Below are positions 33,625 to 63,840 of a stretch of DNA of 64,000 nt, in pieces; positions within the stretch are counted from its first letter, which is position 1; the number at the start of each line of letters is the position of its first letter. A model generated the notes under the pieces. The model saw only the letters and a list, made by a program, of their open reading frames with translations, searched no databases and had not been told where the DNA came from. The stretch spans positions 16,988,001 through 17,052,000 of the forward strand of contig NC_043003.1 in assembly GCF_006345805.1 (NCBI RefSeq), in the 5' to 3' direction. This DNA comes from Octopus sinensis. Its lineage: Eukaryota. The translations under genes were made by a program, and so were the position numbers.

Positions 33625-33743
33625 ACTTATGGCCATATCACGTTGAAAGCACCGGTTCTCGTCCGATCACCGAAGTTAAGCAACATCGAGCCTAGTTAGT
33701 ACTTAGATGGGTGACCGCTTGGGAAACCTAGGTGCTGTAAGCA
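33625..33743 (+). rRNA. 5S: 5S rRNA copy, full length, solitary (probably a retroposed pseudogene)
   Basis: ACTTATGGCCATATCACGTTGAAAGCACCGGTTCTCGTCCGATCACCGAAGTTAAGC...GTTAGTACTTAGATGGGTGACCGCTTGGGAAACCTAGGTGCTGTAAGC is a canonical metazoan 5S of ~119 nt. It is followed by TTCCCTTTT. Confidence 0.95.
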
Positions 33744-33918
33744 TTCCCTTTTAGGCGCAGGAGTGGCTGTGTGGTAAGTAGCTTGCTAACCAACCACATG
33801 GTTCCGGGTTCAGTCCCACTGCGTGGCATCTTGGGCAAGTGTCTTCTGCTATAGCCCCGGGCCGACCAATGCCTTGTGAGTGGATTTGGTAGACGGAAAC
33901 TGAAAGAAGCCTATCGTA

Positions 33919-35436
<1,518 letters not shown>

Positions 35437-60785: not shown

Positions 60786-62181
60786 TTATATTTATAATAA
60801 TACTTAGTGCTTTGGATCAGGAATCTTTTAATGAATATAAAATGGATTATAGTGACTAGTGAGCTATACAAAGAAAAAAAAGTAAATAGACTCAATAGAG
60901 TAAAATTTGAAGATTGTGAAATACCATTCAAATGTTGTAAACGAATGAAGACATTAATAGTATTGAAGTTGCTGCTATCTGATAAATAAAAATGATATTC
61001 AAACTGAAGATAACCCAAGTATATATAATGATTTCATAATGTTAAAAGACTCTAAATATTTGAATTTCCAGAAATAAAAATGTAACCGAGACATTCCAAT
61101 AATAATATATATATTTATAATAATACTTAGTGCGTTTGATCAGGAATCTTTTAAATGAATATAAAATGGGTTACAGTGACTAGTGGATTTCCTTCTTCCG
61201 CTGTCGAAAAAAATAGTAAAAATACTCTAAATATTTGAATTTCCTGAAATAAAATTGTTACCGAGATATTCATGAATTTCAACAGTCTCAGTTTTGTGCT
61301 GTTTCTTGCAAACGATTGGTAACTGATATACAGTTCTTTGACTTCATTTAGTTATTTAATCAGTTCTAATATAGTTATAATCGATTTACATAATAAAATG
61401 TTAGCTTTAAAATAATTTGCAGCTAAAACTATAATCATGATTATGACCAATGGTTATAAACAAAAGGCAAAATTCAATGGCAGAGATCTGTTTCTTCCTT
61501 AAGAAAGTGAACGCTTAGTGAGGTAAACAGATGAACTGTGATCAAAGGGAGATAATACGAAACTATGCTGAACTGAGCACTGGGTGTCCTTGGATGCGTT
61601 TAGTAAAGTCTACTCTGTTTAAAGCGTTTGGGCCAGACCTGAAGTCTTATTAGAGACTTCAGCCTTTCCTTTCCGACTTGACAGAAGCCTTTGAGCAGGG
61701 TCATAGGCACAGCTGCACTTCCTTTGTTTAAACCATTAGAGAAAGAAAAAAAAAAACTGTAATCATAGAATTTAAAGCATACGTATAAGATTTCCTATTT
61801 TCTAATCGACTTTGTTTTCAAGTATTTCATGGCACGAATTTATATTTATATTTTCAAGTATTTCAGGGTGCGTATTCATAACGCATTCTCAAATAATGTA
61901 TTAGGATTCGGTATTCTAAAACGGTTCCCTAGTCATACAAGAAATATTTGTTTTACGGATGAAAACAACTACACTCGGTTGCACTTTCATAACGACATCC
62001 TTCAAATATCACAGGTTTAACGTAAATCAATCAATGTGAGAAGACGAGTTAAAAGTCCTTTTTCATGAGAAAGTCACAAAAATTGAAACTTCTTTTCCAA
62101 CCCGAATTTATTTAGCTTCAAAGAAATGCTATATCTCAACATTTTCACCGTATCTGATTTTAAATGCATCAGATAGAATAT

Positions 62182-62287
62182 GTACTAGCTACGGCGGTAC
62201 AGATTCTAAAACTGGAAGGATACAGAGAAGATTAGCATGGCCCCAGCACAAGGATGACGCGCAAATTTGTGAAGCGTTCCATATTTC
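62182..62287 (+). pseudogene. U6: U6 snRNA full-length copy (diverged, probable retrocopy)
   Basis: GATACAGAGAAGATTAGCATGGCCCC.GC.CAAGGATGAC.CGCAAATT.GTGAAGCGTTCCATATTT. ACAGAGA box at 62222. Roughly a dozen differences from vertebrate U6. Confidence 0.95.
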
Positions 62288-62288
62288 A

Positions 62289-62686
62289 AGGCACAGAAGT
62301 GGCTGTGTGGTAAGTAGCTTGCTTACCAACCACATGGTTCCGGGTTCAGGCCTACTGCGTGGCACCTTGGGCAAGCGTTTCTACTATAGCCTCGGGCCGA
62401 CCAAAGTCTTTTGAGTGGATTTGGTAGACGGAAACTGAAAGAAGCCCGTCGTATATATGTATATGTACACATGTGTGTGTTTGTGTGTCTGTGTTTGTCC
62501 CCGCAAAATCTCTTGACAACCGATGCTGGTGTGTTTACGTCCCCGTAACTTAGCGTTTCGGCAAAAGAGAACGATAAAATAAGTACTAGGCTAACAAAGA
62601 ATAAGTCCTGGGGTCGACTTGCTCGACTAAAGGCGGTGCTCCAGCATGGCCGCAGTCAAATGACTGAAACAAGTAAAATAGAGTAA
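62289..62686 (+). mobile_element. SINE family A, full length, directly after the U6 copy
   Basis: Starts AGGCACAGAAGTGGCTGTGTGG two bases after the U6 T-run. Confidence 0.93.
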
Positions 62687-63419
62687 TTTCAGAAAGAAAG
62701 AAAAATAGCTGAACTGTTGTTCAAAGTGTTAAAAATTACATAAAGTAATAGACGTAAAAGTTTATTATTACATGTTACTATAACATGTCGGTCAAAATGC
62801 TTTGCGGTATTTCGTTCGTCTTCACGTTCCCAGTTCACTTTCCACCAGGGCCGATTTTGACTTTCATCCTTTCGGGATCGATAAAATGAGCACCCGTTCA
62901 ACATTGGGGTCGACGTAGTCGACTTATCTCTGTCCCCCAAAATTGCTGGTCTTGTGCCAAAATTTGAAATCATTGTTGCATGTTGCTTTTAATTACAAAC
63001 AATGAATTCAAAACAAAGTTTCATTATAGAATATCTATTTTTCTAAAATGCGCCATTATTCTTTAACCAGTTTTTCGTAACATTAACTCAAAGAAGAAGG
63101 AGGAGGATGATGAGGAGGAGCAGGAAGCTGTCTTCAGCGTATTTTTGTAATCTTTCTCAAACTGTGAAAAATAGGGTTCTTTTTCTTTTTGTACATTAAA
63201 AAGATATCAGTATTTCCATAATCTGCATAAGTTATTTATTTTTCCATTCCAGCTTTGATAATTATGAAAGAGCAGCATTGTAATGAAAGCTGGCTGGTTT
63301 TATCCAGTATTTGAAGTCTAGACGAGAAAACAAGAATATAAAAAATATACAGTTACACACACACACACATATATATATATATGTGAATGTGGTTGTGTGT
63401 GTATGTGCGTGTTTGTGAG

Positions 63420-63467
<48 letters not shown>

Positions 63468-63473
<6 letters not shown>

Positions 63474-63840
63474 TGTATAGAGGGCATTATTACACATAAA
63501 TGCCACACGCTAAGAGGGACATAAGTCATTACTACCAAAATTTAACTAATCATACCTAATGCAGCTCCCGAAGCAAGACATTTAAAAACTGAATTCAGTT
63601 TTTTAAATGTCTTGCTTCGGGAGCTGCATTAGGTATGATTAGTTAAATTTTGGTAGTAATGACTTATGTCCCTCTTAGCGTGTGGCATTTATGTGTAATA
63701 ATGCCCTCTATACAATATAAATGAATATTTTCAAGTGAAAAAATTATTTTCGAATTTTTTCTCTTATGAGGTTTTTCAGGCTAACTACCTGATAATTTCT
63801 TGTTAAGATTCCTTATTAAGATTTTATCCTTAATTGTTAA
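63468..63840. repeat. (TA)n-flanked insert containing a 253-bp spacerless palindrome (63468-63720)
   Basis: Arms of ~126 bp centred on GAATTC at 63591-63596, with one A5/T6 indel. Confidence 0.92.

What the first reader, a model, noticed from the sequence alone, without database searches (positions are those of the whole stretch)
62182..62686. U6 snRNA-SINE chimera: a second Pol III RNA fused to the same SINE family
Seen: complete U6 (first G to 3' T-run) is followed within 2 nt by the 5' end of a full-length family A SINE in the same orientation, the same architecture as the 5S-SINE at 33.6 kb. Both small-RNA copies I can find in 64 kb are fused this way, and both are preceded by ATAT(G). 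Known: U6/L1 chimeras arise in mammals by template switching or RtcB ligation of U6's 2',3'-cyclic phosphate. Inference: a recurrent route in which this SINE's retrotransposition captures oligo(U)-ended Pol III RNAs at its 5' end.
Basis: partly seen in the sequence, partly recalled or inferred. Interest (0 to 1): 0.75.

Follow-up and report, generated by a model that had tools for sequence, protein, structure and literature searches.

The report
Jumping repeat captures small nuclear RNAs
A decayed copy of the U6 splicing RNA sits joined to the intact front end of a short jumping repeat; it is one of many such small-RNA fusions in this genome, likely made one at a time when a retrotransposon's copying enzyme ran off the end of one RNA and jumped onto another.

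Summary
Confirmed and genome-wide. U6 (62182-62286, 6.7% from its source gene, no gene promoter) is followed after 2 nt by a full-length SINE; the 5S-SINE at 33.6 kb is built alike. Of 72 dispersed U6 3' ends on the six largest contigs, 19 join an intact head of this SINE (chance: at most 0.1) and 64 join some repeat, 29 at the 5' edge of a ~55-nt hairpin tail shared with endonuclease/RT LINEs. Dispersed 7SL (15 of 15), U6atac (19 of 19) and U2 (10 of 12) copies are fused too; U1 (0 of 12) is not. Junctions vary and U6-headed SINEs are not one clade (p=0.011), so these are likely independent events, not a new SINE. Intact SINE 5' ends, 5S precursor trailers and a U6-5S-SINE triple favour end-to-end template jumping over RtcB ligation. 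The route is not special to this SINE nor strictly to oligo(U) RNAs; ATAT is the ordinary target site. U6/SINE chimeras are published for platypus and anole; I found no cephalopod report. This scan noted the same phenomenon on other DNA of this genome.

The parts
62182..62286 (+). Full-length U6 snRNA retrocopy, of the gene type found in the tandem array on C1; 7 of 105 positions changed; upstream DNA unlike the array genes' TATA-bearing upstream
   Evidence: Rfam RF00026 92.4 bits; 6.7% from array gene L009, 10.5% and 11.5% from two other gene types; upstream compared; upstream flank is single-copy
62287..62288 (+). 2-nt linker CA; non-templated addition or leader of a source SINE copy (undecided)
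   Evidence: linkers vary among 19 census copies and 24 exact junctions; the same linker and head variant follow U6atac in L394
62289..62450 (+). Intact 5' head of SINE family A, tRNA-type promoter: A box 62300-62310, B-box position 62343-62353 changed at two bases
   Evidence: box consensus recalled; 40,017 exact head matches in the genome
62451..62621 (+). SINE body with internal (AT)/(GT) microsatellite
62622..62687 (+). 3' tail: two predicted hairpins (62632-62651, 62653-62666) and short GAGTAAAA-type repeats; same motif ends LINEs that encode endonuclease and RT
   Evidence: fold z = -3.1; tail motif behind LINE ORF ends; RVT_1 and Exo_endo_phos_2
62172..62181 (+). 5' target flank ending in ATAT; imperfect match to 62679-62687, target duplication not resolved for this copy
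   Evidence: score 2
33625..33743 (+). 5S rRNA retrocopy of the sister chimera, 2.5% from an array gene
   Evidence: Rfam RF00001 109.2 bits
33744..33752 (+). 5S precursor trailer up to the terminator T-run, identical to a trailer of array genes
33753..34207 (+). Full-length SINE A of the 5S chimera; 5S plus SINE interrupt an older repeat as one block, with about 18 nt of the target missing
   Evidence: collinear intact paralogues in 6 held loci

Best explanation
This is a chimeric retrocopy of U6 and a full-length SINE, likely made in one insertion when a LINE reverse transcriptase copied the SINE RNA to its very 5' end and then likely jumped end-to-end onto the 3' end of a U6 RNA. Steps: (1) inferred: a LINE protein binds the SINE's hairpin tail, nicks an AT-rich site and primes on the tail repeats; (2) shown by anatomy: the copy reaches the SINE's first bases; (3) inferred from R2 biochemistry: the enzyme adds 0-5 non-templated bases and uses them to grip a second RNA's 3' end, oligo(U) ends being favoured; (4) shown: the second RNA is copied in the same orientation, here to its first base; (5) shown for sister copies: the whole block lies in one target site. 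Each chimera is likely a separate dead-end event, about one per thousand SINE insertions per RNA type.
For: Recurrence: 64 of 72 dispersed U6 3' ends join a repeat, 19 an intact SINE-A head, 5 other SINE heads, 29 a tail edge; chance at most 0.1. Other RNAs: 7SL 15 of 15 dispersed, U6atac 19 of 19 dispersed among 20 of 43 examined, U2 10 of 12. Independence: T-runs of 4-9 and varied linkers; one clade rejected for 30 U6-headed (p-AU 0.011) and 22 5S-headed copies (0.013). One insertion: ATAT duplicated round U6 plus full SINE inside an older repeat (L059), and the window's 5S-SINE, L004, L183, L135 interrupt older repeats as blocks; pooled outer-flank match p=0.022, inner junction p=0.33 (19 chimeras). 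Jump rather than ligation: a 5' triphosphate blocks RtcB (PMC6789731, passages); 5S copies carry gene trailers, i.e. precursors; U6-5S-SINE triple L136; R2 RT jumps by non-templated additions (PMC8857657, passages).
Against: Target duplications are only 2-6 nt; the test was not significant for U6 alone (n=9, p=0.23) or solo SINEs (p=0.10), and the inner junction of 5S copies also beat its shuffle (p=0.011). RNA and SINE divergences correlate weakly or not at all (U6 rho 0.36, p=0.067; 5S rho 0.10, p=0.66). No LINE with exactly the family-A tail was seen (30 of 151 protein matches examined, all tail D). The SINE's true start site and 5' chemistry are inferred, not measured. Linkers may partly be leaders of source copies. 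U1 is not captured this way (0 of 12), unexplained. The tree has little resolution (0 of 95 branches at 95% support).
Confidence: 0.8

Rival explanations
1. RNA ligation first: RtcB joins U6's cyclic-phosphate end to a 5'-OH SINE or LINE RNA, and the joined RNA is then retrotransposed, as shown for human U6/L1.
For: Demonstrated for U6/L1 (PMC6789731, passages). The fixed junction at the tail's 5' edge (29 of 72), also seen without any small RNA (9 of 30 tail-B copies), could be a cut site giving 5'-OH fragments.
Against: 24 of 72 U6 copies join intact SINE heads, which as Pol III transcripts should bear a triphosphate; the paper found no full-length products with a triphosphate acceptor. Donors include 5S precursors, 7SL and U2, not known to end in cyclic phosphate (own knowledge). 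Variable linkers; a triple with full 5S in the middle (L136). No ribozyme family at gathering score in the SINE.
Confidence: 0.11
2. Two steps: U6 retrocopies were made first and SINEs later inserted at their 3' T-runs by target preference.
For: SINEs favour AT-rich sites; weak age correlation; duplication unresolved at this copy.
Against: At most 8 of 72 dispersed U6 ends lack a repeat, one being gene-like; none of 57 SINE or tail joins is antisense; the 20 array genes read are free of SINEs at their T-runs; duplication encloses both parts in L059; many partners are 5'-truncated exactly at the join.
Confidence: 0.04
3. A U6-headed (or 5S-headed) composite SINE amplified from one master copy, like crocodilian SINEU.
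For: At least 40 look-alike junctions; five 5S copies share one 3-T junction and are not rejected as a clade (p-AU 0.52).
Against: One clade rejected for U6-headed copies; both SINE subfamilies and two or more U6 gene types occur; linkers differ; the five 5S copies are no closer to each other (0.113) than to others (0.112); U6 has no internal promoter (own knowledge).
Confidence: 0.04

Closest known systems
U6/SINE and U6/LINE chimeric pseudogenes of platypus (L2, Mon-1) and Anolis (L1, L2, RTEX-2, AnolisSINE2); Doucet et al. 2015, PMC4476161 (passages and section 10 read)
   Same: U6 5' of a SINE or LINE piece, same orientation; stringent-tail elements; short target duplications; few unfused retrocopies; ascribed to template switching.
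   Different: Invertebrate genome; a third of copies join intact SINE 5' ends; five RNA classes captured; 5S precursors with trailers; a fixed join at the tail's edge. The section read does not say whether Mon-1 partners are full length.
Human U6/L1 chimeras formed by RtcB ligation; Moldovan et al. 2019, PMC6789731 (passages read)
   Same: Full U6 with its T-run joined to a retroelement.
   Different: Needs cyclic phosphate plus 5'-OH and gives clean joins; here partners are often intact Pol III RNAs and joins carry extra bases.
SINEU of crocodilians (Kojima 2015, PMC4494074, passages) and 5S-headed Deu-SINEs (as cited in PMC4758252 and PMC4494074, passages)
   Same: A small-RNA head added 5' of a SINE, template switch proposed as origin.
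   Different: Those are amplified families with master copies; these are likely one-off events, the raw material for such births.
Template jumping by Bombyx R2 RT (Pimentel et al. 2022, PMC8857657, passages)
   Same: End-to-end jump needing non-templated additions of a few bases.
   Different: Shown in vitro for R2; the enzyme here is an endonuclease/RT LINE of another clade (CR1-like by recalled motifs) and untested.

Membership tests
snRNA/retroelement chimeric retropseudogenes (Doucet 2015) | Small RNA copy directly 5' of the element, same orientation, more often than chance | tested here: met
   19 of 72 against at most 0.1 expected
snRNA/retroelement chimeric retropseudogenes (Doucet 2015) | RNA part lacks the gene's promoter and flanks | tested here: met
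   upstream unlike array genes; flank single-copy
snRNA/retroelement chimeric retropseudogenes (Doucet 2015) | One target site encloses both parts | tested here: inconclusive
   met for sister copies (L059, L004, L183, L135, window 5S), pooled p=0.022; unresolved for the 62.2-kb copy
snRNA/retroelement chimeric retropseudogenes (Doucet 2015) | Independent origins with differing junctions | tested here: met
RtcB-ligated U6 chimeras (Moldovan 2019) | Acceptor is a 5'-OH (cut) RNA | tested here: not met
   by anatomy: join is at the intact SINE head, 11-13 nt before the A box; end chemistry itself not measured
RtcB-ligated U6 chimeras (Moldovan 2019) | Joined RNA exists without retrotransposition | not testable with these tools
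   only assembled contigs offered, no raw RNA reads
snRNA-headed SINE (SINEU type) | Copies descend from a master and share one junction | tested here: not met
   p-AU 0.011; varied linkers
5S-headed composite SINE (Deu-SINE type) | Amplified lineage with read-through junction | tested here: inconclusive
   all 22 rejected as one clade (p-AU 0.013); five with a shared 3-T junction not rejected (0.52) but no closer to each other than to others
Functional U6 gene | Upstream promoter, near-identity to genes, terminator of 4 or more T | tested here: not met
   no array-type upstream, 7 of 105 changes, 3-T run
CR1-clade LINE as the mobiliser | Endonuclease plus RT, tail shared with the SINE, clade by phylogeny | tested here: inconclusive
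   domains found and tail motif shared; clade from recalled motifs only; exact tail-A LINE not found

The most novel reading that the evidence does not exclude
This genome's hairpin-tail LINE enzyme performs end-to-end template jumps in the germ line routinely, from intact triphosphate 5' ends onto nascent small RNAs, without any RNA ligase, and has already seeded a small 5S-headed read-through lineage: a SINE birth by head addition caught in its first rounds.
Probability: 0.12. Interest if true: 0.7.

Novelty: new variant of a known kind. Interest (0 to 1): 0.45.

Why it matters
Whether U6 chimeras arise by template switching or by RtcB ligation is debated; the human experiments favour ligation. 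Many natural joins to intact Pol III 5' ends, to 5S precursors and in a three-part chain are genomic evidence that end-to-end jumping also works in an animal germ line, and give a defined LINE, tail and donor set to test it. They also show the step proposed for adding 5S or snRNA heads to SINEs, and warn that automated '5S' or 'U' SINE labels in such genomes may be these one-off fusions.

Tried and rejected
Ribozyme in the SINE tail: no Rfam match at gathering score; six weak chance matches. ARAGORN calls no tRNA in the window. Age correlation between the two parts: inconclusive. Empty paralogue for the 62.2-kb copy: upstream flank is single-copy. Empty orthologue: only the SINE tail and 3' flank were laid; one 1402-nt contig of run X13 aligns only from 62682 on, so it lacks the SINE tail there, but its upstream letters are not shown, so whether U6 is absent too stays open; X5 and X6 contigs run from the tail into the flank. 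RNA junction reads: no raw RNA runs offered. Search for a LINE with tail A: the 30 of 151 matches examined all had tail D. Of 13 collinear-flank hits among 112 units, three (L126, L286, L298) rest on microsatellites and were discounted. A real U6 gene with a SINE at its terminator: rejected. Two chimeras in one 64-kb window is taken as chance; exact junctions number only 24 and 31 against 40,017 heads.

Full report
Observation. Rfam finds two RNAs in the window: U6 at 62182-62288 and 5S at 33625-33743. Each is followed on the same strand by the head of one SINE family (A), at 62289 and 33753. The U6 copy differs from its nearest gene type at 7 of 105 positions and its SINE by 3.9% from the subfamily majority. 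The window is C7:16988001-17052000 of a 2.7-Gb genome, likely an octopus (recalled repeat sequences and an earlier scan note; no call names it).

Source genes. The 48 best U6 matches include a tandem array on C1 with a TATA-bearing upstream and no SINE behind the T-run in the 20 array copies read. The window copy has the array's 5' hairpin type but not its upstream DNA, so it is a retrocopy.

Census. An exact 20-mer of the U6 3' end occurs 218 times. Of the first 100 listed (C1-C6), 28 are in the array; all other 72 were fetched. What follows them: 19 intact SINE-A heads, 5 intact heads of other SINEs, 29 joins at the 5' edge of a ~55-nt hairpin tail, 3 internal SINE-A joins, 1 decayed tail and 7 other repeats (the last 8 assigned), 8 unassigned, one of them gene-like. 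Two pairs are local duplicates. With 40,017 exact SINE-A heads, 0.008 heads are expected behind 72 sites, 0.10 on the window's own density. Conversely 0 of 30 position-picked heads have a small RNA in front; exact U6-head and 5S-head junctions number 24 and 31, so capture is of the order of one in a thousand insertions.

Other RNAs. 7SL: 25 matches, 10 gene-like, 15 of 15 dispersed fused. U6atac: 20 of 43 matches examined, 1 gene-like, 19 fused, 10 to intact SINE heads. U2: 48 matches, 36 gene-like, 10 of 12 dispersed fused, 3 to SINE-A heads; by exact pattern on C1-C6, 11 dispersed, 6 fused (one U2 variant only). U1: 42 matches, 29 gene-like, 0 of 12 other loci fused to these heads or tails. 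So Pol III oligo(U) RNAs are favoured but not exclusive.

Partner. Two tail variants (5,808 and 1,181 exact copies) end long repeats with RT and endonuclease domains; CR1-like is my recalled label. SINE A carries a variant of this tail, predicted to form two hairpins (z -3.1). Nine of 30 tail-B copies stop at the same tail edge with no small RNA, so that stop belongs to the LINE's own copying. A LINE with exactly tail A was not seen.

One insertion or two. Duplications are short. In 19 chimeras the outer 5' flank matched the 3' end better than shuffled pairs (p=0.022) and the inner junction did not (p=0.33), but U6 alone was not significant (p=0.23) and the 5S inner junction was (p=0.011). Clearer: 10 of 112 units interrupt an older repeat whose intact paralogues join the two outer flanks, among them U6 plus full SINE-A with ATAT duplicated (L059) and the window's own 5S-SINE, with about 18 nt lost. 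For the 62.2-kb copy the duplication is unresolved; one contig of run X13 lacks the SINE tail at this site, but whether it lacks U6 was not visible.

One family or many events. T-runs run from 4 to 9 and linkers differ. In a tree of 98 SINE-A copies, one clade is rejected for 30 U6-headed (p-AU 0.011) and 22 5S-headed copies (0.013); support is low throughout and the U6 label is slightly clustered (23 of 500 shuffles as low). Five 5S copies with one 3-T junction are not rejected as a clade (0.52) but are no closer to each other than to the rest.

Mechanism. The joins include the SINE's first bases, 11-13 nt before the A box, where a Pol III start is expected (own knowledge). RtcB needs a 5'-OH, and a triphosphate acceptor gave 0 of 26 full-length products (PMC6789731, passages). 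5S copies carry trailers like those of array genes, the window's being identical to one, so precursors were copied. L136 is U6-5S-SINE. R2 RT jumps between separate templates by way of non-templated bases (PMC8857657, passages). I therefore put end-to-end jumping at 0.8 and ligation at 0.11; end chemistry and junction RNAs were not testable.

Literature. U6/Mon-1 and U6/AnolisSINE2 chimeras are published (PMC4476161, passages and section 10), and human L1 chimeras with 7SL, tRNA, Y and 7SK (PMC11838501, abstract and section 30). Addition of 5S or snRNA heads to SINEs is discussed in PMC4494074 and PMC4758252 (passages); tripartite chimeras in PMC2104539 (listing only). Searches for a cephalopod report gave none relevant; an Octopus vulgaris repeat annotation lists small '5S', 'U' and 'U-L1' SINE classes in a table without using the words snRNA or chimer- (PMC13282606, passages; supplements not read and may bear on this). 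Earlier notes of this scan describe the same phenomenon on other DNA of this genome; my reading was set before seeing them.

Verdict. Real, recurrent, a new variant of a known kind; this copy's distinct value is the join to an intact SINE 5' end. Interest 0.45.

Noticed in passing
L217-L276, census loci: Several LINE and SINE families are cut at a fixed distance (6-7 nt before the GGTG of the first tail hairpin) whatever the sequence there, with or without a captured RNA: a pause, a protected fragment or a cut site.
   Followed up: partly
L136 (G000:C10695): Three-part chimera: U6 3' end, full 5S with trailer, full SINE-A.
   Followed up: partly
L116, L119, L120, L125, L128, L117: 5S-SINE copies sharing one trailer and a 3-T junction that would not stop Pol III; possible small read-through lineage, test inconclusive.
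   Followed up: partly
L429, L431-L441: Dispersed U1 copies sit in (ATT)n tracts or beside a different repeat end, not behind the hairpin tails: possibly another enzyme's route.
   Followed up: no
L043: An 18-nt stretch of the 5' flank reappears inverted just 3' of the U6-tail insert.
   Followed up: no
5S chimeras L107-L216: G directly before the 5S start in 9 of 22 copies, where array genes mostly have T.
   Followed up: no
window about 63472-63718: Near-perfect palindrome of about 245 nt between AT microsatellites; MITE or assembly artefact.
   Followed up: no
window 34025-34250 and 34754-34980: Local duplication of the 5S-SINE's tail with its 3' flank.
   Followed up: no
G000:C1:141.83-141.96 Mb; C4:131.78-131.98 Mb; C5:117.01-117.04 Mb; C15:28.98-29.18 Mb: Gene arrays of U6, 5S, 7SL and U1; 5S genes have many different 3' trailers, usable as source tags.
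   Followed up: partly
L037-L039 (small contigs): A U6 type with a different 5' hairpin on three unplaced contigs; possibly another organism's DNA.
   Followed up: no
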